A DNA stretch of 64,000 nucleotides from the human T2T-CHM13v2.0 reference genome, Homo sapiens. Location: the NCBI RefSeq assembly GCF_009914755.1, contig NC_060934.1. One strand, given 5' to 3'. A model generated the notes under the pieces. That model was not told where the DNA came from. It made no database searches and was given only the letters and a program-made list of their open reading frames with translations. Below, piece after piece: positions 28,981 to 57,210 of this stretch. Position 1 is the first letter of the stretch. The number at the start of each line of letters is the position of its first letter. The translations under genes and the position numbers were made by a program.

Positions 28981-29693
28981 CTGGTAATTTAGAGTGCTGA
29001 CATTTTTGTTATTGTTAGTTCAAGTTGCTGGGGATGTTTATGTGTTTCTAGTTATATTTCACTGTATATTTAGTACATACACATTAAGAGAGATAAATCT
29101 CTATTTTTTTTTTCTGACACATAAAAGAAAAATTCCTGATCAGTATCTTTCCTTGCCTTGCGTGATTTTAAAAAATGATTGTCAGATTCAGTCAAAACTA
29201 AATAGGAAAAGTGGTAGCAATTCTCTAGAATATCTGCTAATAGGCCTATTAAGACCTTTAATCTACCAGTATTTGTAGTGTTTTGCAACTTTTTAACCCA
29301 GCTTTGCTGGCCAAGATTTTGTAAAGCTTCACTTTCTACAAGAGGACACTGGTATAGAGTAATTTTTTTTTGTTTTAAAAAATATAAAATGATGCTATAA
29401 GATGCATAATATTAATTGTGGTTTTTCAAACAATGTTTCCTTTCCAACCCATCCTAGAGATTGTGATATACCTTCCCCATCCCACCACCCCCTGTTGACT
29501 ATGGAAGGCCTAGAAAGATGAGAAAGATGGAGAATCTCTGTCTTAGAGTGGGTGAAGCCACTATGGAAAGAGTCCCTCCTTTTTTCTTAAGACCAAAATA
29601 AATAAATAAATAAATAAATAACCAAGAGAAATGCAAATACATTAATTCATTAAATGAACAATGTCATAAGAAAAGCTAAATAATCTGACCTAC

Positions 29694-29865
29694 CCATCTA
29701 GGAGGGCGATGACATTCTTCCTCGGCCGCCCAATATTAGGGCCATATAAGCTGGCTCTGGAATAAATCCGGATGGGCTGCAACAGGCTCTTCAGCTGGAT
29801 GTAATCCTTTCCCAACTGGCTGCCATTTACTGCCCGGCCATGCATGGTCCGATAGTTATTTGGCT
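29694..29865 (-). CDS. HPSE2: HPSE2 coding exon, probably exon 5 (172 nt, phase 1-2)
   Basis: Minus strand reads ttttaatctag|AGCCAAATAAC...CTAGATGG|gtaggtc. It encodes EPNNYRTMHGRAVNGSQLGKDYIQLKSLLQPIRIYSRASLYGPNIGRPRKNVIALLDG (C-terminal part of ORF 29690..29977) and is in frame with both neighbouring exons. Confidence 0.97.
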
Positions 29866-30139
29866 CTAGATTAAAAGCAGACATGTAAGTCAGAATGAGA
29901 AGTGTAAGGTTCTGCCAACACTTTCCTGTCCACAGATCTCTCTGCCTTTTTCTTAATAATATGAAAAAAAAAAACAATAAAAAAGTGGGTGTGAATTATT
30001 TTAACTTAAAGAACCACCCAAACAAAAAAAGGTCAAGTTAGCTTGCTGTTCCATTCATTTTCAAACTAATTTTCACAAAAAGATAACCTAATCAACACCG
30101 GAGACCATACAGATTTTCAGGTGCTACTTCATAACGAAT

Positions 30140-30580
30140 TGTATACTGGATTGAACAGTGTCCCCCAAAATTTATGTCTACCAGAATCTCAGAATGTGAG
30201 CTCATTTGGAAACAGGATCTCTGAAGATATAATTAGTTATGATAAGGTCATACTAGATTACAGTGGGTCCTAAATCCAATGACTTCTGTCTTTATAAGAG
30301 AAAGGAGAAGGAAGTTCAGATACCCAGACACAGAGAGAAGAATGCCACGTGACAACAAAGATTGGAGAGATGTTGCTAGGCTAAGCATTGCTGGCAGCCA
30401 CCGGAAGCTAGGAAAGAGGCATGGAATAGATTCTCTCTCAAAACTCCCAGAAGAAACCAATACTGTTGATGCTCTGGTTTCAGATTTCTGGCCTCCTAAA
30501 ATATCAGAGAAGCAATTTTTGTTGTTTTAAGCCACGAAATTTGTGATAATTTGTTATGGCAAGCCTAGAAAACTAATACA
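30140..30580 (+). mobile_element. MLT1-family (ERVL-MaLR) solo LTR
   Basis: tg...gaacagtgtcccccaaaatttatgtc...ttggaaacagg...ctggcctcc...gttttaagccac...aactaataca. It lies ~275 nt upstream (in gene sense) of the 172-nt exon. Confidence 0.85.
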
Positions 30581-30893
30581 CATGGTAAGAAGTGAAATCT
30601 TCATAAAGATGTTCACTGCCAAAAAGTCAGAAAAAATATTAATATTCATTAATAACAAAGTAGCTAATTGAAGTAATTTTGAGCAAAGCCTCCTCTTTCA
30701 GCTTCCATTACCTTGGTAGTTCTAAAAGGGGAGAAAAATTCCCTGAAACGAGCAGCTCCACAGCTGGAGGAGGCTAATTTGATTTGGAATGGTGTGCATA
30801 CCCCAGGAAAGGCCAACATCTCAGCTGGCTTGAGACTATGATACTGGCAGGTACAAGAAATAAACCTGTAGACTTGCAAGAAATATAATAGGA

Positions 30894-34708
<3,815 letters not shown>

Positions 34709-35407
34709 GAAATATAATAGGAAAATTTGGGGAATAAGGCAGCCACAGTGAACCTTGACAATCTCACACATACTCCCTGTAATCTAGAAGGCTAAATATG
34801 CTTAGGAGGGACTACAGGATAGAAGTGTGGATAGTAGGAGGATTCCTAGCTATCCACACATTTCCAGATAAGTGTGAAACCTAGGACACTTATAAAGGAA
34901 ACATCAGAAGCCATGACTGAGAGTAAAATCCCAGTTAGACTTGTAAAAGACCTAAATTTTTAATGTGTTTCCCAACCAACACAGAGATGCACTGGCAAAA
35001 GGTGGAAGGCTTACTGGCTCAAGGGAATTAAGCAAAACCTCTGATCAATCTTCAGCTCACCATTAAGCTATGTTGACTCAAGTGCAACCCCCAGGAGACT
35101 TGTCTTAACAATTAAAAAATGATTAAGAAATAAAAAAACTTAAGAGATATCAGTAGCTACATGACTCAAGGGAGACAGACTCTATAGAGTTAGTCCAAGA
35201 CCTATGGTATGGAAGTACAGAATTCAGAGTTGGTCCAGTATATTATCTAAAATATGTAGTTTTCAACAAAAAAGCTATTATACATGAAAAAAATAGAAAA
35301 GTTTGACTCATACCAGCAAAAAACATAGAAACTGCCTCTATATTAGGGGCCCTAAATATTAGACTTGGCAGTCAAAGACTTATAAATATGTTCAAGAACT
35401 AAAGACA

Positions 35408-35728
35408 GTCTGGGCACAGTGGCTCATGCCTGTAATCCCAGCACTTTGGGAGGCCAAGGCAGATGGATCACTTGAGGTCAGGATTTTAAGACCAGCCTGG
35501 CCAACACAGTGAAACCCTGTCTCTACTAAAAATATGAAAATTAGCTGGGCATGGTGGTATGCGCCCATAGTCCCAGATACTTGGCTTGGGAAGCTGAGGC
35601 AGGAGAATTGCTTGAATCCAGGAGGCGGAGGTTGCAGTGAGCCAAGATTGCACCATTGCACTCCAGCCTAGGTGACAGAGTGAGACACTGTCTCAAAAAA
35701 ACAAAAAACAACAACAACAAAAAAAAAC
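35408..35728 (+). mobile_element. AluS
   Basis: Dimeric Alu with an A-rich tail and short TSD aactaaa. Confidence 0.9.
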
Positions 35729-36374
35729 AAACTAAAAATAATAAAGAGCTAAAGGAAAGTATAATGTTAATGATTCATCAAATAGAAATATACATAAAGA
35801 AAAAGAAATTATAAAAAACAGTCAAATAAAATTATTGAACTTAAATGACTAATCTCATACAGGAGAACACAATGAGATTAACAGCTCAGTTTTTATCAGA
35901 AAAAAATGGAGGCCAGAATATGGTAGGATGATATATTCAAAATGCTGAAAGAAAACAAAACAAAACTGATAACCAAGAATTCCATATGCAGCAAACTATC
36001 CTTGAAAACTGCATGCAAAGTTAAACATTCTGAGAAAAACAGAGAGAAGAGATTTTGTTGTGAGCAAATATGCCTTATAAGAAATAAAAAAGGAAGTCAT
36101 TCAGATTGGAATAAAATGATACCAGATGGTAACTCAAAATCACACAAAGAAATAAAAGACATAAATAAAGGTAATTACATGAATAACTGTAAAAAATATT
36201 CATTACTCTTTTCTTCTCTTAACTGATTTAAAAGACAGTGCATAAAACAAAAATACACAACTCTATTGTTGGGCTTATAAAATATAAAGATATAATATTT
36301 AGAATAATAATAGCACAAAGGACTGGGGAATGAAACTGTACTGAAGCAAGTTTCTGTATTAAACTAGAATTAAG

Positions 36375-36674
<300 letters not shown>

Positions 36675-36764
36675 AACCTAGAATTAAGTTAGTATTACTT
36701 GAAAATAGATTGTGATGAGTTAAGATGTATTGTGATAAGAAACTACTAAGAAAATAACAAAACA

Positions 36765-37085
36765 GGGTGGGTGTGGTGGCTCATGCCTGTAATCCCAGCA
36801 CTTTGCTAGGCTGAGGTGGGAGGATTGCTTGAGCCTAGGTGTTCAAGACCATCCTAGGCAACACAGTGAAACCCCATGTCTACGAAAAATTTTAAAAATT
36901 AGCTGGGTGTAGTGGCATGCACCTGCAGTCCCAGCTACTCAGGAGGCTAAGGTGGGAGAATCGCTTGAGTCCAAGAGGTTGAGGCTACAGTTGGCTGTAG
37001 TTGTACCACTGCACTCTAGCCTGGGCAACAGAGCAGGGCCTTGTATGAAACAAAAGAAAAGAAAAGAAAAGAAAAGAACAAAACA
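36765..37085 (+). mobile_element. AluJ-like
   Basis: ggaggattgcttgagcc and gaggttgaggctacag diagnostics, with a (GAAAA)n tail. Confidence 0.88.
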
Positions 37086-37365
37086 ATGAAAACAGTACCT
37101 TAGACAATATTTCTTTTACATAAAAAGGCATGAAAAGTGAGACAGAGGAACAAAAATGCCACGAGATAAATGGAAAACAGCAAGATGGCACATGTAAAGT
37201 CAATTATATCAACAATCTCAAATAATGGAAATGGATTAAATACTCCAATTAAAAGCAGAAATTATCAGACTGAATAAAAAATAGATCCTAATATGAGACA
37301 TATTTCAGATTCAAAAATACAAACAGATTGAAGGTAAAATTTTTTTTTAAAAGGTAGACTATGTA

Positions 37366-37676
<311 letters not shown>

Positions 37677-39041
37677 AAAAAGGTAGACTATATAAACAGT
37701 AACCATAAGAGAGCAGAAATAACTATACTAATATCAGAAAAAATAGATTTTAAGATAAAAACATTACTAGAGATAATATGAGGCATTTTATAATGATAAA
37801 AGGCATTTTATAATGAGAAGAAAGGTCTCAACATCAGGAAGATATAACAATTAGAAACATATATATACCTAACACCACCATCAAAATACCTTAAACAAAA
37901 TTGAAGAGAGAAATAGAAAATTCAAGAACAATTGAAGGAGACTTCAACACTACATTCTTAATAATAGATGAAACGACTGGATAAAAAAATCAGCAAGAAT
38001 ATAGAAGACTTGACTGGCACTATCAGCTAACTTTACCTAATTGCCATCTACAGAATATTCCACCCAACAACAGCAGGATACATATTCTTTTCTAGTACAT
38101 AGAGAAAACATCCTTCAGGACAGATCATATTGTAAGACATAAAACAAATCTCATAAATTTAAAAGGATTAAAATCATACAATGGATGTGCTTTAATCACA
38201 ATAGAATTAAACTGGAATTCAACAAAAATTGAGAAATCCCCAAATATTTGAAAATTTAACAAATAATCCATTGATCAAAGAAGAAATCACAAGGAAATAA
38301 ACAAAATTAAAGTGGAATAAAAATGAAAATAAAATACATAAAAAGATATGGGATGCAGCTTAAGCAATGCTTTAGGGGGAAATTTATAGCCTTAGGTGCC
38401 TATATTAGAAATGAACAAAGATCTCAAATCAATAACCTAAGTTTCCTCCTTAAGAAAGGAAAAAAGAACGGAAAACTACACCCGAGCAAAACAAAGGAAT
38501 GAAATAATAAAAATTAGAGTAGATATCAATGATATTTTTAAAATAGAGAAAATACAGGGAAAGCGAAAGTTGGTTATTTGAAAAGACCACAAAACCGATA
38601 TACCTTTAGTTAGACTGACCACCGAAAAAAGAGAGAGAGAAGTCACAGATTACCAAAAGGGAACACCACTAAACAATCTCACAGTAATTAAGTTGATAAG
38701 GAACTACTATGAAAATCTTTGTGCCAATAATTTAGAAAACTTAAATAAAATGGTAAATTTTTTTAAAAAATGCAGAAATTATTAAAACTGACTAAATAAG
38801 ACACAGAAAATCTATATAGACACATAACAACAACGAAAACCCATTGAGGTAGTAATTAAAAATCTTTCCACAAAGAAAGCCCAGATCCGTATGGATTAGT
38901 TGGTGAATTCTATTAAATATTTAAATAAGAAACACCAATGCTTTACAAACTCAGAAAATGGAGGAAGAGGGAACACTTTTCAACTTATGTTATGAGGCCA
39001 ATATTGCCCTGACACCAAAGCCAGTCAAAGACATCACTAGA

Positions 39042-39342
39042 GGCTGGGTGCAGTGGCTCACGCCTATAATCCCAACACTTTGGGAGGCTGAGGCAGGTGG
39101 ATCATTTGAGGTCAGAAGTTCAAGACCCACCTGGCCAACATGGTGAAACCCCGTCTCTACTAAAAATACAAAAATTAGCCAGGCATTAGAGGTGCACACC
39201 TGTAATCCCAGCTACTCAGGAGGCTGAGGCAGGAGAATCGCTTGAGTCTGGGAGGTGGAGTGAGCCGAGATTGTGCCACTGCACTCCAGTCTGGGCGACA
39301 GAGTGAGACCCTTTCTCAAAAACAACAACAACAACAACAAAA
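39042..39342 (+). mobile_element. AluS
   Basis: Dimeric Alu with an (AAC)n tail and TSD aaagacatcac(t/a)aga. Confidence 0.9.
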
Positions 39343-41160
39343 CAAAGACATCACAAGAAAACTACAGACAAATATTCCTCATAACATAGATGTAAAATCC
39401 CCAACAAAATATTTACAAAGTAAGTCCAGCAACATATGAAAAGTATTATACACTATGACCAAGTGGGATTTATGCCAAGAACGCAAGGTTGATTTAATAT
39501 TAAAGCCTTTTAACTAATGTAAAATACCATTGTAATAGAACAAAAGACCAAAACTAAATTATCATCTCAATAGCTGCAACAACACCACCAAAACTCATCT
39601 GACAAAATGCAACACCCATTCCTGATAAATATTCCCAACAAACTGAATAGAAGGGAACTTTCTCAACTTGATAAAGCGTATCTAAGAAAAACCTAGACCT
39701 AACATCATACTTAATGGTGAAATATGGACTGTGTGCCCCTAAGACTAAGGAGAAGACAAGGATGTCTGCTCTTGCCACTTAAGAGTCAACATTTGTACTA
39801 GAGATTCTAGCCAGTGCAGTCAGGCAAGGGAGAGAAATAAAAAGCATCCAAATTGGAAAGAAAGAAGCAAAACTGTTATTATTCTCAGACAATATGATCC
39901 TACATACAGAAAATCCTAAGGAATCCACACACAGGAGGGGAAAAAATACAAAATCTAAAGAATAAATTCAGCAAGGTTGGAGGGGATACAATATCAATTT
40001 ATAAAATCAATTATATTTCTAAGTACTATTGATACACAATCCAAAAGTGAAATTATAAAAATACTTCCATTCCCAATTGCATCAAAAAGAATAGTATACT
40101 TAAGAACAAGTATTTAACAAAAGAAGTACAAAACTTATACACTGAAAACTACAAAACATTGCTGAGATAAATTAAAAATTAAATAAATGGGAGATAATCT
40201 AAGCTCGTGATAGGAAGATTTTGTATTGTTAAGATGGTAATTCTCCCTAAATTGATTTATAGATTCAATGCTATCCCATTAAAATTCCAGGAGGCTTTGA
40301 TGAAGAAATTAACAAGCTAATCCCAAATTTTACATGGAAATGCAAACACCCAGGATAGCCAAATTAATTTTGAAAAACAAAGGAACAAAGTTGGAGGATT
40401 TACATTTCCAAATTCTAGCACTCTTTGTAAAGCTATTGTAATTAAGACAATGTAGTCCTAGCATAAGGAAAGACATACAGATCAGCGGAACAGAATTAAG
40501 AGTATAGAAACAAAACTATGTATGGTCAATTGATTTTTTTTTTACAAAGGTGCCAAGATAAGTAAATGGGGAAAAAATGGTCTTTTTAATAAATGGTACT
40601 GGGAATCTCTATATCCACATGCAAAAAGACTAATTTATAGCCTTACTTCACAACGTTCACAAAAATTAACTCCTAATAGATTTAGGGCCAAATGTAAGAG
40701 CTAAAACAATGAAACTTTTAGAAGAAAATATAGGAAAAAACTCCTTGTTATCTTGGATTAAGCAAAGATTATAGCACCAAAAGCATAATCCATAAAGTAA
40801 AACCTCATAAATTGAACTTTATCAAAATTCAAAGCTTTTAGACTAAAAGATGCCATCAAGTTACAAAAGACGAAGTAAAAAAATTATTTGCAAATCATAT
40901 ACTTGAATTTTTAAAAAAATACGTGTATCCAGAATATATAAAGAACTCTTACAATTCAATAATAAAATAACCCACTTAAAAGAGCAAAAGCTTTGGGCTG
41001 ATATTTCACAAATTAAGAAGTAGAAATGGCTAGTAAGTACATGAAAAGGTGCCCAACAACATTAGTCACTAGGGAAGAGCAACTGTTTTCAGGTCCTTCT
41101 ATTTAATATCTATCTCTTCTATAAGGATGTAGGCAGTTATATTCATCTGTTATTTACTAT

Positions 41161-41488
<328 letters not shown>

Positions 41489-41879
41489 TAGTGAAGAAAG
41501 CCAAGAAATCTAAACATAATTTAAAAAGTAATAACCATAGGGCAGTAGAAAACGTACTTCACTTTCTATTAGATTTCCCAAGTTCCTGACATAGATTTGG
41601 TACTTACTGCTGCCTTTAGCAAATCACGTCACCTCTTTGAATGTGTTTCTTCACTTGTTTAATACTTTATCAGGCACTTTATTTAGTATTTTGAGGTCCA
41701 AATAGAAGAGTCTATTTGGAAGTGCTACATAAACTAAATACTATGCAAATATAGGATGACAATATTGCTGATAATTACAAATATAAGCCTCTAAGAGAGT
41801 AACACTAAGTCTTTGTAATCAACCGGTGGCAAGAAATAGGCATTTTATACCCTTTAAAATGAAAGATAAACACGTTATT

Positions 41880-42720
41880 CTTTTTAAATAGCTTCATTGA
41901 GATATAAAACACATACAATTCACCAATTTCATGTGTATAATTCAATGGTTTTTAGTATTTTCACACAGTTGTGCAACCATCACAACACATTTTAGAACAT
42001 TTTAATAATCCCAGAAAAAACTCTGTGCCTTTTAGCAGTCACCCCTCACCCCTCATGGGCTCCCCAGCCCTAAGCAAACACTAATCTACTTTCCGTCTCT
42101 GTAGGTTTGTCTATTCTGGACATTTCATATAAGGGGAATTATACAATGTGTTGTCTTTTGTGACTGGATTCTTTCATTCAGCATAATCTTCTCAAGGTTC
42201 ATCCATTTGTAGAATGTATCAGTACTTCATTTTGCAGCACATAGTATTTCTTTGTATGTATTTGTCACGTTTCATTTATCAAGTCATCAATTGATGGTCA
42301 TTTAGGTTGTTTCCACTTTTTTTGCTATTAAAAGTAATTCTGTTATTAACATTCATGTAGAAGTTTTTGTATGGATGTATGTTTTCATTTCTCTTGGATA
42401 TATATCTAGAAGTGGAATTGTTGGGTTACTTGGTAATTTTATGTTTAACTTTTTGAGGAACTACTGGACTATTTTCCAAAGTGGCTGTACCATTTGACAT
42501 TCCCACCAGCAGTGTGTGAAGGTTTCAGTTTCTCCACAACCTTGTCAACATTTGTTACTTTACTTTTCCTTTTTAAAATTTGGCCATCCTATAAGTGTGA
42601 AGTGGTATTTAATTGTGGTTTTGATTTGCTTTTCCATGATGGCTAATGATGTTGAGCATCTTTTCATGTACTTGCTTGTCATTTGTATATCCTCTTTGGA
42701 GACACAAAATATTTTGTCCA
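41880..42720 (-). mobile_element. Old L1 (L1MB-like) 3' end, minus strand
   Basis: agcttcattgagatataaaacacatacaattcacc...cattcccaccagcagtgtg...gatgttgagcatcttttcatg. Confidence 0.82.
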
Positions 42721-42829
42721 AAATATTCTTTTAACTGCTTCTTGTGTTGTCCTTAATATCAGTGAAACAAGACAGCAAATGATATTCATATTTCCAAGAA
42801 GTAGGTCTTCATCATGACTCACACTTTTT

Positions 42830-42924
42830 TTTTAATTGATAAACTTTATTTTTATTTTTAGAGCAATTTTAGGTTTACAGAAAATTGAGTAGACAGTACA
42901 AAGAGTACCCATATAATTTGTCCC

Positions 42925-42962
<38 letters not shown>

Positions 42963-43152
42963 ACAAACACACACAATTTCCCATTATTATCTTGCCTTGG
43001 TCTGATACAGTTGTTACAAATGATAAACTAATATTGACACATCATTATTAACTGAAATCCATAGTCTACATTTGGGTTTACTCTTCGTGTTATACAGTTG
43101 TGTGAGTTTTGAAAGGTGCAAAATGTCATGTATCCACCATTACAGTACCATA
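42830..43152 (-). mobile_element. Old L1 (L1MC-like) 3' end, minus strand, with (CA)n at ~42927-42974
   Basis: tttagagcaattttaggtttacagaaaattgag...ttgacacatcattat...gtatccaccattacagtaccatac. Confidence 0.7.
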
Positions 43153-43539
43153 CCTCTTTTTCTTTATAAATTACCCAGTCTTGGATATATCTCTATCAGC
43201 AGCAAGAAAAGGGACTAATGCAGTAAATTGGTACCGGGTAGTGGGCCACTGCCATAAAGATACCCGAAATGCGAAAGCAAGTTTGAAACCTGTTGCCCAG
43301 TTTCAAACTTGCTTTCGCATTTCGGGTATCTTTATGGCAGTGGCCCACTACCCGGTACCAATTTACTGCATTAGTCCCTTTTCTTGCTGCTGATAGAGAT
43401 ATATCCAAGACTGGGTAATTTATAAAGAAAAAGAGGTATGGTACTGTAATGGTGGATACATGACATTTTGCACCTTTCAAAACTCACACAACTGTATAAC
43501 ACGAAGAGTAAACCCAAATGTAGACTATGGATTTCAGTT
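43050..43539. repeat. Perfect palindrome: 240-bp arms (43050-43289, 43300-43539) and 10-bp spacer ctgttgccca
   Basis: Base-by-base reverse-complement comparison found no mismatch. The mirror ORFs 43109..43393(+) and 43196..43480(-) encode near-identical peptides. Confidence 0.97.
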
Positions 43540-43664
43540 GGAATAGTTTGAAGGGCTCAGAAGAAGACAGGAAAATGTGTGAAAGTTTGGAACTTCCTAG
43601 AGACTTGTTGAATGGCTTTGACCAAAATGCTGATAATAACACGGACAATGAAATCCAGGCTGAG

Positions 43665-43986
<322 letters not shown>

Positions 43987-44119
43987 TCAGATGGAGATGA
44001 GGAACTTGTTGAGAACTGTAGTAAAGGTGAATCTTGCTATGTTTTAACAAAGAGGCTGGTGGTATTTTGCCCCTGCCCTAGAGATATGTGGAATTTTGAA
44101 CTTGAGGGGGATGATTTAG

Positions 44120-44451
<332 letters not shown>

Positions 44452-46867
44452 TAAACAGTAAAGCATTCAGGATATGACTTGGGTGCTGTTAAAAACACTC
44501 AGTCTTAAAAGGCAAACTGCAGCCTGATGATGTGATAGAAAAGAAAAACCCATTTTCTGAGGAGAAATTCAAGCCTGCTGTAGAAATTTGCATAAGTAAC
44601 AAGGAGCCAAATGTTAATTGCCAAGACAAAGGGAAGAATGTCTCCAGGGCATGTCAGAGACCTAAACAGCAGTTCCTCCCATCACTGGCCAGGAGGCCTA
44701 GGAGGAAAAAATGGTTTTGTGGGCTGGGCCCAGGGCCTCCCTTCTCTGTGCAGCCTAGGGGCTTGGTGCCACTCTAGCCATGGCTAAAAGGGGCAAAGGT
44801 ACAGCTCAGGCTGTGGCTCCAGAAGGTGCAAGCCCCAAGCCTTGGCAGCTTCCACATGGTATTGAGCCTGCAGGTGCATAGAAGTCAAGAATTGAGGTTT
44901 GGGAGCCTCTGCCTAGATTTCAGAGGATGTATAGAAATGCCTGTATATCCAGGCAAAAGTTTGCTACAGGGGTGAAGCCCTCACAAAGAACCTCTGTTAG
45001 GGCAGTGTGGAAGGGAGAAGTGGGGTTGAAGCCCCCATAAAGAGTCCCCACTGGGGCACTGCCTAGTAGAGCCATGAGAAGAGGGCCACCACCCTTTAGA
45101 CCTCAGAAAAGCTCCAGAGACTCAATGCCAGCCCATGAAGGCAGCCAGGAATGGGGCTGTACTCTGTAAAGCCACAGGGGCAGAACTGCCCAAGACCACG
45201 GGAACCCATCTTTTGCATTGGCGTGACCTGGATGTGAGATATGGAGTCAAAGGAGATCATTTGGGAGCTTTACGATTTGACTGCCCTGCTTGATTTCAGA
45301 CTTGCATGTGGCCATTAGCCCCTTTATTTTGGCTAATTTCTCCCATTTGGAACAGCTGTATTTATCCAATGCCTGTTCTACCATTTATCTAGGAAGTAAC
45401 TAACTTGCTTTTGATTTTACAGGCTCATAGGCAGAAGGGAATTGCCTTGTCTCAGATGAGACCTTGGACTGTGTACTTTTGAGTTAATGCTGAAATGGGT
45501 TAAGACTTTGGGGTACTGTTGGGAAGGCATGATTGGTTTTTAAAAATGAGGACATGAGGTTTGGGAGGAGCCAGGGGTAGAATGATATGGTTTGGTTTGG
45601 CTGTGTCCCCACTCAAATCTCATCTTAATTGTAGCTTCCATAATTCCCATGTGTTGTGGGAGGGACCCAGTGGGAGATAATTGAATCATGGGGTCAGTTT
45701 CCCCCATACTGTTCTCATGGTAGTGAATAAGTCTCGCAAGAGCTGAGGATTTTATAAGGGGTTTCCCCTTTTGCTTGGTTTTTTTTTTTTTATTCAGTTC
45801 TGGCTGCTGCCATTTAAGACATGCCTTTCACCTTCTGCCATGATTGTGAGGCCACCCCAGTCACATGGAACTGTGAGTGCTTTAAACTCTTTTTCTTTAT
45901 AAATTACCTAGTCTCGAGTATGTCTTTATCAGCAGCATGAAAATGGACTTTATACAGCAGCTGTCCCACAAATGTTTTCTGTAACTATCTAACTGTGACA
46001 GTAACCAGAATTTTAGTGAGAGAACATGATTCTCCACCATGATAATGAACTCCAAGAACCAATGTAATTCAAACTTCACTCACTTCCCTTAATAATCAAA
46101 GGATAATTAACTTAAGTGCTTAAAAATGTAAGCTATGAATTTATGAATACATTTGTGCATTAATTTATACTTTTATTATATATTATTTGTTGGTTTAACA
46201 ATTTTCCTGATTCAGTTCTTCACTTCTTTCAAACTATAAGAGATTCCTCCAGTTCTAGCATATAAGAGTTTAATAGTTTAATAGTTTTAAGTTTATCCTA
46301 ACTTTACCTTTAGATACTAAACTCCTGGAGACTAGAATTTCTTTGTTCTGTATATTCACTCTGTGTCATAGTATGTTATGCCAAGCTATAAAGTAGTGGC
46401 CAGAGAAGGAATTCAAGGATTCCTCCAACTCCCATTTCACACTTGGCATATTTTGCAGGTGCTCCACACATACATAGTTAATGCAAGAATGACTAAATAC
46501 CATGAGAGTATGTTTCTGGATAAGAGTCTGTGGGGAAAGAATTGAGAAGATGAAGGTTGAAGGAGAGAAGCAGACAGGAAGAGAAAACTGAGAAAAGAAG
46601 CAGGTAAAAAGACTATATGGTTTCTTGTTTTTTTCTTCCTCCTCCTCTTTTCCCCTCCTCTCCTTCCCTATCAAAACTCTATGTTCTGAAAATACAGTTT
46701 TCTAAAGCTCTTAGCTGTGACCTACCCTCATAAATAATTGACAATATGTGTGAAGACTGTGACTGAATCTTATGTTTGGCTTTCACCTGTTATATACACA
46801 TAAAAATACAGGACCAAAATATATAAATGCACATTTATATATTATACATAAAGGAACATAAATGCAA

Positions 46868-49049
46868 TTCCCTGGCAAGATGGCCAAATAGGAACAGCTC
46901 CAGTCTGCAGCTCCCAGCAAGACCAACACAGAAGGCAGGTGATTTCTGCATTTCCAACTGAGGTACCCAGTTCATCTCATTGGGACTGGTTAGACAGTGG
47001 GTGCAGCCCAGTGTTGTATCTGGGCCAGCAAGCACTATCCATCACAGCATAGTCCCTCATGGCTTCTCTTGGCTAGGGGAGGGAGTTCTCTGACCCCTTG
47101 CACTTCCTGGGTGAGGTGATGCCCCACCCTGCTTCTGCTCACCCCATCATCTCAGCCCCAAAACTCCTTAAGCTGATAGCAACTTCAGCAAAGTCTCAGG
47201 ATACAAAATCAGAGTGCAAAAATCACAAGCATTCCTATACATCAATAATACACAAACACAGAGCCAAATCATGAGTAAACTCCCATTTACAATTGCTACA
47301 AAGAGAAAAAACCACCTAGGAATCCAACTTACAAGGGATGTGAAGGACTTCTTCCAGGAGAACTACAAACCATTGCTCAAGGAAATAAGAGAGGACACAA
47401 ACAAGTGGAAAAACCTTCCATACTCATGAATAGGAAGAATCAATATTGTGAAAATGACCATACTGCCCAAAGTAATTTATACATTCAATGCTATGCTCAT
47501 CAAGCTACCATTGACTTTCTTCACAGAAGTAGAAAAAACTACTTTAAATTTCATATTTCATATGGAAACAAAAAAGAGCCCATATAGTCAAGACAATCTA
47601 AGCAAAAAGAACAAAGCTGGAGGCATCACACTACCTGACTTCAAACTATACTACAAGGCTACAGTAACCAAAACAGCACGGTACTGGTACCAAAACAGAT
47701 ATATAGACCAATGGAACAGAACAGAGGCCTCAGAAATAACACCACACATTTACAACCATCTGTTCTTTGATAAACCTGACAAAAACAAGCAATGGGGAAA
47801 GGATTCCCTATTTAATAAATGGTGTTGGGATAATTGGCTAGCCATATTCATAAAACTGGACCCCTTACTTATACCTTAAACAAAAATTAACTCAAGATGG
47901 ATTAAAGAGTTAAACGTAAGACCTAAAGCCATAAAAACCCTAGAAGAAAACCTAGGCAATACCATTCAGGACAAAGGCATGGGCAAAGACTTCATGTCTA
48001 AAACACCAAAATCAATTGCAACAAAAGCCAAAATTGACAAATGGGATCTAATTAAACTAAAGAGCTTCTGCACAGCAAAAGAAACTATCATCAGAGTGAA
48101 CAGGCAACCTACAGAATGAGAGAAAATTTTTGCAATCTATCCATCTGACAAAGGGCGAATATCCAGAATCTACAAAGAACTTAAACAAATTTACAAGAAA
48201 AAAAACCCCCATCAAGAAGTGGGTGAAGGATATGAACAGACACTTTTCAAAAGAAGACATTTATGCAGCCAACAAAGATATGAAAAAACGCTCATCATCA
48301 GTGGTCATTAGAGAAATGCAAATCAAAACCACAACAAGATACTATTTCATGCCAGTTAGAATTATGATCATTAAAAAGTCAGAGAACAACTGATGCTAGA
48401 GAAGATGTGGAGAAATAGGAATGCTTTTACACTGTTGGTGGGAGTGTAAATTAGTTCAACCATTGTGGAAGACAGTGTGGCGATTCCTCAAGGATCTAGA
48501 ATTAGAAATACCATTTGACCCAGCCATCCCATTACTGGATATGTACCCAAAGGATTATAAACCATTCTTCCATAAAGACACATGCACACGTATGTTTATT
48601 GCAGCACTATTCACAATAGCAAAAACTTGGAACGAACCCAAATGCCCGTCAGTGATAGACTAGAAAAAGAGAATGTGGCACATATACACCATGGAATACT
48701 ATGCAGCCATAAAAAAGAATGAGTTCATGTCCTTTGCAGGGACATGGATGAAGCTGGAAACCATCATTCTCAGCAAACTAACACAGGAACAGAAAATCAA
48801 ACACTGCATGTTCTCACTTATAAGTGGGAGGTGAATAATGAGAACATATGGGCACAGGGAGGGAAACATCACACACTGTGGTCTGTCGTGGGGAGTGGGG
48901 TAGGGGAGCGATATCATTAGGACAAATACCTAGTGTAGATGACAGGTTGATGGGTACAGCAAACCACCGTGGCACATGTATACCTATATAACAAGCCTGC
49001 CCATTCTGCACATGTAAAAAAAAAAAGAAGAAGAAAAAAAGAAAAAAAA
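46868..49049 (+). mobile_element. Complex rearranged L1PA (L1PA7-like): 5'UTR forward 46868-47010, 5'UTR inverted 47011-47145, ORF2 3' part and tail 47141-49049
   Basis: ggcaagatggccaaataggaacagctccagtctgcagc is the L1 start. The next segment is the reverse complement of gagcagaagcagggtggggcatcacctcacccaggaagtgcaagggg. ORF2 ORFs span 47214-48663. A degenerate TSD (aaggaacataaatgca / aaagtacataaataca) is present. Confidence 0.85.
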
Positions 49050-49708
49050 GTACATAAATACATCATACATTTATCCACCTAAACTCAGGCTAAAAGCTTA
49101 ATAAATATTGAGGGAATGCATTAATCAAGCTGTGCTGCCAGAATCATAAGAATCATCATCTCTGACTTTCTAAGGTCAGAAACTTGATTTTACAAAATTA
49201 CTTAGTAGACAGGCTCCAGAGAACTGAGTCATATAACTAATTCTTATAAAAGAATAACATGTGAATGTATATAGGTCAGGTTATGGGTATGAATATATAA
49301 TATTGATTCAATAATTAATTATAGTAGCTTTTACTTGCTTATAGAAATGGGCAGATATATTTGGGAAGCACATTTATAGTTCATAATGTAGTTCAGTGTT
49401 CATTCAATTAGAGGTATTACATTATCTTAAGGTAATTTTTGTGATTAAGTATAGCTCTCTAGAGAACAAACACCATTTCCCTGAAATGGAGTTGGACTAG
49501 AATTTATATACACTTCCAGAGTTTGAGTCCCAGCTTCAAAAATTTCTCCAGTTCTTTCTTACTTTAGATTCACCAATGGTTAATATAAATGTAAAAATCT
49601 GTAATCATTACATTAATCAGTTACAGAGTTTACAATTTATGGACATTTAGGGAAATATGTTATATCCAAAGAAAGTAATTGTAAAAAAGTATGGTGTCAA
49701 GAAAGTCA

Positions 49709-50038
49709 TTTTTTTTTGTTTTGCTTTTGATTTTCTTTTCTTTTGTCTTTTTTTTTTTTGAGACAGGGTCTCACCATGTCACCCAGGTTCAAGAACAGTA
49801 GCATGATCATGGCTCACTGCAGCCTCAACCTCCCAGGCTCAAGTGACCCTCCAGCCTCAGTCTCCCAAGTACCCAGGATCACAGGTGCATGCTACCACGC
49901 CCAGCTAATTTTCTAGTTTTTTGTAGAGATGGGGTCTTGCTATACTGTGGCTGGTCTCAAACTCCTGACCTCAAGAAATCCTCCCATCTTGGCCTCCCAA
50001 AGTGCTGGGATTACAGGTGTGAGCAACCATGCCTGGCC
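49709..50038 (-). mobile_element. AluJ-like, minus strand
   Basis: gagacagggtctcacc...gcagcctcaacctcccaggctcaag, with TSD aagaaagtcatt. Confidence 0.9.
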
Positions 50039-52334
50039 GAAGAAAGTCATTCTTTCATATTCTTTAACATCCTAACCTTTCTCATCTTTGCCTCTTGATA
50101 TTGGGTATATCTTGCTTTTGTGGTCTGTAGCCCACACTATTCACTGCTTTCAAAGAAGAGGAAAAGAGGTAGGTTAGTCACTTAAAGTTTAGCCACTCTA
50201 GAAGAAACAATCACAGAAACTTATACTTTGTTTTTTCCAATGCTAGATTTGCTCTAGAGATAAAATACTTGTTAACATGGTGTAGGTATATGGAAAGATG
50301 AGTGATAAGAAGACTGACCTGTTCTATTGTCCTTTCCTGAATGTGAATATAATGATTAAATGATTACCTCTGTCCAAAAAGATAAGGTTACAAAGCAGAA
50401 ATGGCTAGAATATTGGAGAAACATGTCTACCATGAAAATATTTTGAGGGGGAAGAGGCTCAATATACAACACAGAATAGTTTTGAGCAGAATACTGTACA
50501 TTGGATATCTTAAGAGAGATGATTCTAGTACAAGAAAAACTATCAGTAGTTGTAAAATGAATTAGAGAAACAGCAAAATAAATCTTCAAACAATAAAATG
50601 TATTCTTTAGACTCTAAAATGTAGCTTTAATAAATGATTATTTATCATTAATAATCATTTATTATTTATTAATCATTTATTATGGTTACAGAAAAAATAG
50701 AAAGGCACTTTAAGGGGAAAACACTAAATCTAGATTTTCTGACGAGATTCATAATGACCTATAGAAATACACATTATTGGCTATTTTTCACTTTATTGAG
50801 TTTTTTTTGTTCTTTTCCTATCTATATTCCTATTTTCTTATCAATGACAGTGCCCTTTCTCCTCTTTATAAATAATTCTTTGTTGTTGTTAACCCCTGAG
50901 GAGGCACTTTAAAAGACAATGATGGGAACCAAATGATGTGTGGTTCAGGTGTCTAAATAACATTTTTTTAAGTGTAATTAGCTCCCTTTCTGAACTATGT
51001 AGCACAGTCTGAAGGAAGGAGGTTGATGGGGAGGGGCAAGTTCTTACTTGTCTGGAACAGATATATACAGAAAGATGTATATATTCTCTTCTCCAACCCA
51101 CCCCCGCCACAAAATCACTCCAATTATGCCAGTTGTAGATTTATTTAATTTAACAAGCTCCCACACTCAGAGATGCCAAAAACCCTAGAATAATTATTCC
51201 CATCAATCACTTGTAGGTAAGTTTTAATTGCTTTGGGCGTATCTATTATTAGTTGAGATGTTTTACAAACCAGTTTTATGTAGGCAGCACAATATTTTTA
51301 CAAGAAAACCAAACAAAGCCTTTGGGCATGTATTCTCCAGTTCAACAAAAGCCCCACCATTCTTTAGTGTCTGATACTCACCTCTTTTAACCATTATGCC
51401 TAATTGGTCTCTCATGGCAGGTGTCATGCCCTGTTTGAAGAATATTTTGCCCTGTTTGGAGAATAAAGCTAAGTTGGGCAGAGCCTAATATTTGAGGAGG
51501 GTAAGGTTAGGTGAGTGGTCATGAGTATACAACATAAAATACCAAAAAATGTCAAAAAATATAAATAGAAGATGGGATGGAAAGGGATCAGTAAAAGACT
51601 TTACTGACAATGTAATACTTTTGCCTACTTCAAAGCTGATCATATCATTCCTGCTTTTGTTGTCAAATGTATGATACTCAGGCAAGTCTGGAATACGAAA
51701 AACTTCAGGCTACCCTAGTTGAGACTCCTACAGTCATGGTATCCTGAGTTTAACTCAACAGGTCTCCATTTGGTCAACTAACTATCCCCAAATTTCCACA
51801 GGTAAAGAAGAGAGAAAAGCAGAGAAAGAGGAAAGAAACTGAGGGCTACGTTCCAGTTAGTGGCTACTGGTAGGAAAGTTGGACATTTATTCTTTTCTTC
51901 CCTTGCCATCTTATTTTGAGAAATCCAAATTCCAAGATGCAATAAATACACATGGGCACACACACACACTCACACATATAGTGCTCCAAACAAATATGGG
52001 TTAGCTAGAGACATATAAGACTGTTAATGAAAATGTTGGAATCAATTTGCATCAGTAATTTTAAGAGAATTCTTGGTTTGTTCGATTCAATTGTTTTGTT
52101 CTAAAGTATACCAAAAGGTCTTTTAATTTGAGAATCACATATTTTCATATCTATACTATCAATAATTTTAACTATAATCCATATTGACTCAATATTACAG
52201 ATTCATGAAATCTACAGAATAACATATGTCACAAATAAATATATATCATTGAGAAAATAGCACGATTTAGGAAATATTTCTCCAAATTGTGTTCCATGGA
52301 GTATTGTTCCATGGAATGAATGATAACTTATGTT

Positions 52335-52350
52335 ACACATACACACACAC

Positions 52351-52388
<38 letters not shown>
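52335..52388. repeat. (CA)n microsatellite
   Basis: acacatacacacacac... run. Confidence 0.9.
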
Positions 52389-52390
<2 letters not shown>

Positions 52391-52401
52391 TAATGATTAA
52401 A

Positions 52402-52909
<508 letters not shown>

Positions 52910-53450
52910 GTTAAATTGTTTAAGAAATGCTGGGTTAAAAAATGTCTAACAGATTTCTTTGCAACAAGACTTCTTATAGCCTTTTATATACTAATGTGCA
53001 CTGTGAACCTTCAGGAGGTTCACATACTGTATAAAGGTCCTCAAATATATTTGACCAAAGCTCTTTTCAATTATTATTTTAGAAGGATCATCTTGTAGGA
53101 CCAATGTTCCACAGAACACACATTGTAAAAGGCAGCTCAGGCTGTGCAAACAGGTTATAAAATCAATTTGTTAGTCATAAATCACTATATATTTCCCATT
53201 TTGTGGCATTTTCCCCATATTTGGAATGAGGTAACTAGAGATAACTATAGATGCAAATGGTGGTATTCACTAAATATACTGTCCTTCACTATTTGGTCTT
53301 CTACCATTTGGATAGTCAACTCAGTGGCCAAACATCACAAACGTTTTCTGGGCCAGGGTACTAGAGATGGTCTGATTGAGACTGTATCACAAGCCAACTT
53401 ATTTTTCCCCTTTATTTTGTCAATTCAGAGGAAGTAACATCCTTACTTAC

Positions 53451-55251: not shown

Positions 55252-57210
55252 CAGTGTATCCCAAGGTATGGATAATATGACTTCAGGTAGTACACAGTTT
55301 TAAAAAGCTTCTTAGATTAATAATTATGTAGAAGAGTTTACGTTATCCTAGTAGCCGTTAAAGCTAATGCAGAGTTTCTCAAATGGGGTTCTGTGAAACA
55401 CTAGGGTTCCACAAGAGGTCACCAGAGGTTCTGCAAGAGATGATGCAGAGTGTCCAAGTTACCCCATTAGCAATTTTGTTATAGATCTTTTAGTCCTTTA
55501 AAAAAGAACCATTATCATTGGGTTGAGTATTTTATCAGTTTTTGAAGCAGGATATAGGAAGACTGCCATTTTCATCTTCTTACATATATAAGAAAGTATT
55601 TCTTAAGAAGCACCAAGAACAAGGACAGAAATTGTCTCATTTCTGTCAACTTATATCATACTCTACCCAGAAATAAAATCGATGTCAACTTACATCATAC
55701 TCTACCCAGAATTGAGTAATTGGGCAACAACAACAACAACAAAAGGAATAAATTTCACATTCAGGAAATACATTTAATTATTATTTTTAGTTCCAAATAC
55801 ATTTAATTATTATTTTTAGTTCCAAAATAACAATTAAAATTAAAATGCATTTATAGCTTAGTAAAGTGATCATGAAACCAGTATATAATAATTTTATAAT
55901 TATCTACATGCCATTAGGTAAAAAAATAATTTTTGTCAAAGTATCATATAAAATTGTATCATAGGCTATAATTTTATTCATATTGCTTTGATGTATAGTT
56001 TTACATGCTTTACTATTCAACATCATTAATACATTTTATATTCAAAATAATATTAAAGTAAATTCATAACCTTTATTTAAATTAAACCTAACAAACCTAC
56101 CCTTAGAAAAATTTTATCCCATTGTGGCTTAAACTAGTTACTTAACAAAAACAAATTATGTTTGCCTTATAAGATTTTCAAATTTATGAAAAGGAAATGA
56201 TGAAATTAATTTCAAGAAAGACAGATAACTACTCTTTTTTTTCTTTTCAATCATAGTTGTCTAAAATAGTTGTCCTATTTAGTTTTAAATAGGACTTGCA
56301 TTTACCATACCTCAGTAGTATTGATACAACAGAAATTTGTGTTAAGACTTTGAGGCCCACTTGTATAAGATACAAAAAAAATCTAGTAGGATTTTTTTTT
56401 AAAAAGAAAAACTGAAGTTTCTTTTATCTATACCATTAGAATTGGTATCCTTTGTGGGGATAGGGAAACAATGCAAAAAATAAATAGGTTAAGAAACTGC
56501 CCAAACTAAACAGATTCTAAGGAAAATATAACTCTCTATTTAACAGAACACTGGCAATATTGGATAATTATATATCTACAACTCAATAGTCATTCTAATA
56601 TACTATGAGCTTTAGATATAATAACTTTTATCCAGAAGTTTCCTTGAGATTTGAGAATTATTATTCTAGGTTACTCAAAAAATAATTTGAGTATTATAAG
56701 ATCAACAGAGGTCCATTTTTAAGTCCTCTATTATTCATGTCATGAAAGTTATATTATCATAAAAAATACTCAATATTCAATTAAATAACATTTTATTCAT
56801 CCATAGTTTCAATGACATCTATTAAGCATGCAATAAAATTACTTATTTTCATAATTTTTGGTTTCATTTATATACTAAAATCCATATCAAATGTTTGCAT
56901 CAAAATTTAATATGAATGACTGATATTCCTTTTGGATAGATTGATTCCATTTAAGTCATCTTTTTCTAAAACTATTTCCATATAATGAGTATTTTACTGT
57001 GTATGTTTCACATGTATTAGAAACACAAACACACATCAAACACAAAAGCATATCAAACCTTTGATTTCATGGATTTGATGGTTTAAGGCAAGGCAAAATG
57101 TATTTACAAAAAATGTGTCAACATAAAGAGCAGTATGGGAGAAACAGTATGGATAGTTTGTTCACATAGCAAAAATTGGGAACTAGAATGCTAAAAGTTT
57201 GGGAAATACT
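55252..57210. mobile_element. Probable degenerate hAT-Charlie DNA transposon remnant(s), very AT-rich
   Basis: Charlie-like termini cagtgtatcccaagg (55252), cagagtttctcaaatggggttc (~55370) and aagtttgggaaatact (~57210). No ORF support. Confidence 0.4.
55644..55826 (+). repeat. Two short local duplications (29-bp unit, period 39, 55644-55711; 29-bp tandem, 55766-55826)
   Basis: tgtcaactta(t/c)atcatactctacccagaa twice, and aaatacatttaattattatttttagttcc twice. Confidence 0.85.

What the first reader, a model, noticed from the sequence alone, without database searches (positions are those of the whole stretch)
43281..43550. Palindrome junctions record a two-step replication template switch
Seen: the spacer ctgttgccca reverse-complements to tgggcaacag, and after the right arm the sequence resumes gttggaatagtttgaagggctcagaagaag. 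From my recall of THE1-int, the ancestral text is ...gaactgggtaacaggcagaggttggaacagtttggagggctcag. Inference: synthesis stopped at ...gaaac and jumped ~11 nt ahead onto the opposite strand (1-nt 'c' microhomology). It copied ~250 nt backwards, then returned at a 'gtt' microhomology, losing only ~5 nt. This gives an inverted spacer plus a duplicated arm in one event, as in short-range template-switch/FoSTeS models, but with a long tract.
Basis: partly seen in the sequence, partly recalled or inferred. Interest (0 to 1): 0.7.

Follow-up and report, generated by a model that had tools for sequence, protein, structure and literature searches.

The report
Perfect palindrome from a replication slip
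A perfect 240-base mirror-image repeat inside an old retroviral-like element in an intron of the human HPSE2 gene was likely made by a local copying slip during DNA replication, and it is a clear but ordinary example of a known kind of mutation.

Summary
The feature is real. Arms 43050-43289 and 43300-43539 match at 240 of 240 bases around a 10-nt spacer; the next-longest perfect inverted repeat in the window is 18 bp. The right arm is the derived copy. In 51 of 57 paralogous copies of the host LTR element, 19 nt separate the homologues of the arm end and the resume point; the spacer matches the first 10 of these only when reversed. So 250 nt were copied in reverse, 6 nt are missing, and the net gain is 231 nt: switch order 3-1-2-4, a described class (26% of ape events, with its mirror case). 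The tract length is typical of human inverted duplications (median 284 bp). The 1-nt microhomology is at chance level, and a 3-nt reading of both junctions fits too. Fork direction cannot be read from sequence. A fold-back followed by a later spacer flip gives the same sequence. No orthologue or second haplotype was available. Verdict: new member of a known kind, low interest; one switch pair 0.6, fold-back plus flip 0.3.

The parts
43050..43289 (+). Left arm, the original copy (240 nt): end of a LINE-like fragment, remnant of the 5' LTR, and start of the internal region of the LTR element
   Evidence: LINE-like homology runs on leftwards past 43050 (to about 42970-43030) in 18 of 18 copies
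43290..43299 (-). 10-nt spacer, inverted relative to the host element
   Evidence: Reversed match 6-10 of 10 in 53 of 57 copies; forward match at most 5 of 10
43300..43539 (-). Right arm, the derived inverted copy; begins and ends with the same triplet (GTT)
   Evidence: Interrupts the internal region, which is colinear in the paralogues; carries the mirror of the locus-specific LINE/LTR junction
43537..43539 (.). Return junction with a 3-nt microhomology
   Evidence: Equal to +17..+19 in 39 of 51 copies; chance of 3 nt or more is about 0.05
43287..43290 (.). First junction: 1-nt microhomology (minimal reading), or 3-nt priming plus a 6-nt slip (alternative reading)
   Evidence: 48 of 51 copies (1 nt); 36 of 51 have a 3-bp inverted repeat between arm end and +17..+19; 32 of 51 have a 3-nt direct repeat 6 nt apart bounding the missing bases
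42970..43153 (+). Old LINE-like fragment (L1 label recalled, not tested), joined directly to the LTR remnant
   Evidence: identity to copies falls from 14 of 18 at 43153 to 1 of 18 at 43154
43154..43219 (+). Last 66-71 nt of a 5' LTR; about 300 nt of it are missing, a loss that both arms share
   Evidence: 87% to the 3' LTR; the rest of the LTR is found nowhere else in the window
43540..45582 (+). Resumed internal region of the LTR element (THE1/MaLR label recalled), with two Alu-like insertions at about 43667-43961 and 44138-44440
   Evidence: Colinear with the paralogues; best copies 93-95% identical over 43540-43660
45583..45957 (+). 3' LTR, about 375 nt
29866..53450 (-). Host intron of HPSE2; the palindrome lies 13.2 and 9.9 kb from the flanking exons
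   Evidence: Hub annotation

Best explanation
The palindrome is a local inverted duplication with an inverted spacer, likely made in one round of replication by a switch to the opposite strand and a switch back. Shown: left arm original, spacer reversed, 250 nt copied in reverse, 6 nt missing, net +231, order 3-1-2-4. Inferred, reading left to right: the new strand stopped at 43289, re-primed 10-19 nt ahead on the opposite (lagging-template) strand, ran back through the spacer and 240 nt already copied, and rejoined its own template at a 3-nt match. The first switch may have primed on a pre-existing 3-bp inverted repeat whose far arm is the same triplet used for the return. In that reading the 6 nt went by a slip between 3-nt direct repeats before, during or after the event. 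It is probably a neutral scar, young relative to the host element. It would fold as a 240-bp hairpin in HPSE2 pre-mRNA, but no function is indicated.
For: Junction counts on 57 copies. Colinearity and direction of copying. The right arm holds a LINE/LTR junction for which only this locus matched at 100% among the 40 candidates scored, so its template was local. The pattern 'inverted repeat with inverted spacer' is 26% of gold-standard ape events (PMC7954356 S1 Table), and point 2 ahead of point 1 needs an inter-strand switch. Human polymorphic inverted duplications have median 284 bp and mostly 1-15 bp microhomology (PMC12350158). Both arms share all 10 copy-specific substitutions in 135 nt of LTR-element sequence, which bounds the time since the arms were last identical to about the last 8% of the element's mutational history.
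Against: Spacer orientation is the only sign of an inter-strand switch, and it can change later: 9 of 10 yeast spacer inversions were on already perfect arms, some recurrent (PMC8604942). The plain inverted-repeat class that includes fold-back is commoner (49%). The microhomologies are weak: 1 nt P = 0.44, 3 nt P about 0.05. The 3-nt reading is post hoc and needs a 6-nt slip; 0 of 57 copies show that 13-nt gap. Paralogues stand in for the pre-event allele and were picked by likeness to the window. Arm homogenisation would void the age bound.
Confidence: 0.6

Rival explanations
1. Fold-back plus later flip: the new strand ran past the spacer, folded on itself at the 1-bp or 3-bp inverted repeat, copied 240 nt of itself and returned (3-2-1-4). 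A second, arm-mediated switch or crossover later inverted the spacer.
For: Gives the same final sequence. The class that holds fold-back is 49% of events. A 3-bp inverted repeat spans the loop in 36 of 51 copies, and departure and return would fall on the same triplet. Spacer flips on perfect arms are documented in yeast. Fold-back of 3' flaps is proposed for small inverted triplications, median inverted part 160 bp.
Against: Needs a second event and its spread within a short history. No flip rate for human arms of this size was found. There is no third copy as in small inverted triplications.
Confidence: 0.3
2. Break repair with a templated insertion (MMBIR-like or polymerase-theta end joining): a break near +11 to +16 was repaired by a 3' end copying 250 nt in reverse from the sister chromatid before rejoining.
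For: A small deletion plus short microhomologies are what such repair leaves; germline templated insertions with microhomology are described in humans (PMC8421209).
Against: The template runs unbroken across the first junction, so an intact sister is needed and the model merges with the best explanation. 250 error-free bases is long for end-joining inserts (own knowledge, not tested).
Confidence: 0.07
3. Assembly artefact, or an event private to the CHM13 cell line.
For: Perfect palindromes are a known read artefact (own knowledge). No second genome was available. Graph node numbers leave room for a variant site in window 29,251-46,791.
Against: The sequence returns to the host element 19 nt on, with a reversed spacer and a 6-nt loss, which simple fold-back chimeras would not give. 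The window has no N.
Confidence: 0.03

Closest known systems
Short-range template switch, type 3-1-2-4 / 1-3-4-2 (Loytynoja and Goldman 2017, PMC5453318; Walker et al. 2021, PMC7954356)
   Same: Inverted repeat with inverted spacer, local template, net length gain; 23-26% of events.
   Different: Reversed tract 250 nt against median 12 and maximum 128; the 2017 search used only 100-200 bp of context, so such tracts were out of its reach.
Small polymorphic inverted duplications in 1000 Genomes long reads (Schloissnig et al. 2025, PMC12350158)
   Same: 277 events of median 284 bp, mostly 1-15 bp microhomology, replicative origin suggested.
   Different: Spacer orientation was not discussed in what I read; whether this locus is in that call set is unknown (no inversion table in the held part).
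Ripley-type inter-strand switching at inverted repeats with spacer inversion (yeast; PMC8604942)
   Same: A switch at a short pre-existing inverted repeat inverts the spacer and lengthens the arm (REG2: 5 to 16 bp).
   Different: Here a possible 3-bp repeat was extended to 240 bp with a net gain of 231 nt.
Small inverted triplications (PMC13334657) and ODIRA junctions (PMC10766186)
   Same: Tract near Okazaki-fragment size; leading-to-lagging or flap-primed reverse synthesis.
   Different: No third copy, no second palindromic junction; junction homology 1-3 nt rather than 5-6; spacer 10 nt rather than 30-80.

Membership tests
Four-point template switch 3-1-2-4 | Central fragment is a reverse-complement copy of nearby sequence | tested here: met
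   240 of 240 arm bases plus the spacer
Four-point template switch 3-1-2-4 | Switch order 3 < 1 < 2 < 4 on the pre-event sequence, with the spacer inverted | tested here: met
   By proxy on paralogous copies: 19-nt gap in 51 of 57, reversed spacer at +1..+10, resume at +17..+20
Four-point template switch 3-1-2-4 | Polarised against the true orthologous allele | not testable with these tools
   The genome has no relatives here
Four-point template switch 3-1-2-4 | Both junctions and the spacer inversion arose in one event | tested here: inconclusive
   One haplotype; fold-back plus flip gives the same sequence
Small inverted duplication (structural-variant class) | Gain of 50 bp or more that is an inverted copy of adjacent sequence, with short microhomology | tested here: met
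   Net +231 nt; 1-3 nt microhomology
Small inverted duplication (structural-variant class) | Polymorphic among humans | tested here: inconclusive
   No row for this place in the held tables; indirect node-number hint only
Small inverted triplication / DUP-TRP/INV-DUP | Three copies, with the return point upstream of the departure point | tested here: not met
   Two copies only; the return is downstream, with 6 nt lost
Mobile-element insertion | Target-site duplication, poly(A) or own element ends | tested here: not met
   the insert is a LINE/LTR chimera of the adjacent DNA
THE1 / ERVL-MaLR host element | Match to the family consensus (Dfam) | not testable with these tools
   Name recalled. 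Shown only: paired LTRs of about 375 nt, about 2 kb internal region, many copies at 80-95%
Described structured RNA family | Rfam match at gathering score | tested here: not met
   0 matches in 42500-46500

The most novel reading that the evidence does not exclude
The locus is a young, still segregating human palindrome made by a leading-to-lagging switch that primed and returned on one pre-existing 3-bp inverted repeat and copied one Okazaki-sized gap. Its spacer flips between haplotypes, making it a natural germline reporter that links short template switches to the roughly 280-bp inverted-duplication class, and it puts a perfect 240-bp duplex into HPSE2 pre-mRNA.
Probability: 0.15. Interest if true: 0.5.

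Novelty: new member of a known kind. Interest (0 to 1): 0.25.

Why it matters
It is a clean worked case showing that a roughly 250-nt human inverted duplication parses as a four-point template switch, and that dispersed repeat copies can polarise such an event without an outgroup. If spacer orientation were scored across the several hundred known small inverted duplications, inter-strand switching could be told from fold-back in the human germline. Alone, the locus changes little. The predicted pre-mRNA duplex is intronic and under the 300-bp class reported as most depleted.

Tried and rejected
Excess mutation in the arms: 10 of 135 private bases against 16 of 282 in the flanks, p = 0.52, although one subset gave 10 of 70 for the internal part; rejected. 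A recurrent 6-nt deletion in the family: 0 of 57 copies, so the 3-nt reading gains no support from recurrence. An 11-nt mini-palindrome at 43299-43309, absent from 51 of 51 copies: 9% of nearby positions lie within 10 nt of one, so it is not counted as evidence. The 8-mer at 43280/43545 as a target-site duplication: rejected. In one search four copies gave gaps of 68-79 nt because the probe aligned to a second, downstream match; taking the nearest match gave 19. One copy (L063) had a weak arm alignment and was kept. Literature: no paper holds both 'HPSE2' and 'inverted repeat', and none of the 15 listed concerns this locus by title or abstract start. The Walker event table has no chr10 row starting 986 or 987 (the GRCh38 position near 98.7 Mb is recalled), which is uninformative given that method's reach. 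The palindrome catalogue PMC7680136 needs a perfect 8-base centre, so it cannot list this one. The Barak table covers duplexes over 300 bp; I saw 2 of its 11 chr10 rows.

Full report
Observation. The window holds a perfect inverted repeat: arms 43050-43289 and 43300-43539, 240 of 240 bases paired, with a 10-nt spacer. Nothing else in the 64 kb exceeds 18 bp, and 75 other fetched loci reach at most 27 bp. On the HPSE2 sense strand it is predicted to fold at -457 kcal/mol, with 0 of 100 shuffles as stable. It lies deep in an intron, 9.9 and 13.2 kb from the exons (hub annotation).

Anatomy. The left arm spans three older pieces: a LINE-like fragment to 43153, the last 66-71 nt of a 5' LTR, and the first 70 nt of the element's internal region. 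The names L1 and THE1/MaLR are recalled; no repeat library was on hand. LINE-like homology continues leftwards beyond the arm in 18 of 18 copies, while the right arm interrupts a region that is colinear in the paralogues. The right arm is therefore the derived copy. It includes the mirror of the LINE/LTR junction, and only this locus matched at 100% among 40 scored candidates, so it was templated locally and is not a mobile insertion. No poly(A) or target-site duplication was found.

Junctions. No orthologue was available, so 57 non-overlapping paralogous copies were compared one at a time. They were the best-scoring matches to window pieces, which biases them towards likeness. The gap between the homologues of 43289 and 43540 is 19 nt in 51 copies, 18 in 4, 11 in 1 and 22 in 1. 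The spacer matches the first 10 nt only when reversed (6-10 of 10 in 53 of 57; forward at most 5). Among the 51, base +11 pairs with 43289 in 48, +12 pairs with 43288 in none, and +17..+19 equal the last three bases of the right arm in 39. So 250 nt were written in reverse where 19 stood, 6 nt are absent, and the net gain is 231. The switch order is 3-1-2-4.

A second reading of the first junction. Both arms begin and end with the same triplet. In 36 of 51 copies the arm's last three bases are complementary to +17..+19, and in 32 of 51 the missing 6 nt are bounded by a 3-nt direct repeat. The first switch may thus have primed on 3 nt at the very triplet later used for the return, with the 6 nt lost by slippage. 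This is post hoc, and 0 of 57 copies show that deletion. A 1-nt match occurs at 44% of random junctions and a 3-nt match at about 5%.

Mechanism. Shown: which arm is derived, the inversion of the spacer, tract length, loss and order. Inferred: one replication-associated switch pair onto the opposite strand (0.6). With point 2 ahead of point 1, an intra-strand switch is excluded for a single event (PMC7954356), but fork direction cannot be read because 1-3-4-2 is a mirror case. The main rival is fold-back followed by a spacer flip (0.3): it yields identical sequence, its class is commoner (49% against 26%), and 9 of 10 yeast spacer inversions occurred on already perfect arms (PMC8604942). Break repair with a templated insertion (0.07) and artefact (0.03) remain. 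These weights are my judgement, not computed.

Age. The 5' LTR remnant is 87% identical to the 3' LTR over 63 nt, yet the arms are identical and share all 10 copy-specific substitutions in 135 nt. Without homogenisation this confines the duplication to about the last 8% of the element's mutational history, or under about 5-12 million years for assumed rates of 0.5-1e-9 per site per year (rates recalled). Switching between arms can reset this clock. The arms show no excess mutation (p = 0.52).

Population status is unknown. The held tables of PMC12350158 list no variant at this place, but they cover only differentiated variants and mobile elements, and the file is cut after Table 18. Node numbering leaves room for one more variant site in the 17.5 kb around it; this is a lead only. 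Unseen supplements, including bioRxiv ones and the large alignment file of PMC7954356, could list the locus.

Comparison. It works like, and on the features that could be tested belongs to, the 'inverted repeat with inverted spacer' class of template switches. The tract is about twice that catalogue's maximum (128 nt) but near the 284-bp median of 277 human inverted duplications, which mostly show 1-15 bp microhomology. It is not a small inverted triplication and has no Rfam match. I found no paper on this palindrome.

What was read. PMC7954356: passages, part 1 of 2 of one results section, S1 Table, searches of the event table. PMC5453318, PMC7680136, PMC10766186, PMC8604942, PMC8421209: passages. 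bioRxiv 2021.11.26.470150: part 1 of 7. PMC13334657: part 1 of 8 and passages. PMC7006430: passages and a supplement search. PMC12350158: passages, the Inversions section, supplement index and searches. All other papers: search listings only.

Verdict. A real, well-resolved mutational scar and a new member of a known kind; interest 0.25. The boldest open reading, a segregating palindrome with a flipping spacer that reports leading-to-lagging switches, has probability about 0.15 and would merit about 0.5.

Noticed in passing
window 43153/43154: About 300 nt of the 5' LTR, and the adjoining LINE-like sequence, are missing at a sharp junction with little overlap. Both arms carry it, so it is no younger than the duplication.
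   Followed up: partly
window 29251-46791: Published graph ids put an L1 insertion at 29251 (nodes s465772/3) and a 308-bp deletion at 46791 (s465775/7; Fst 0.22 in East Asians). If backbone nodes are numbered in order (my inference), two more breakpoints lie between. The palindrome is a candidate; 8 Alu-like copies there have only 2-11 CpG, so they look old.
   Followed up: partly
window 43281, 43286, 43544, 43551: Four copy-specific substitutions lie within about 12 nt of the two junctions; three of them make an exact 8-mer direct repeat and two make an 11-nt mini-palindrome. Weak, possibly chance.
   Followed up: partly
L004, L006, L013, L020, L023, L025, L029, L030: These paralogous copies carry an extra, overlapping match of about 60 nt just after the resume point, which looks like a subfamily-specific tandem duplication.
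   Followed up: no
window 55766-55826: Perfect 29-nt tandem duplication, 2.1 copies.
   Followed up: no
window 50628-50682: AT-rich inverted repeat with 15-bp arms and a 7-nt spacer, overlapping an 18-nt tandem repeat.
   Followed up: no
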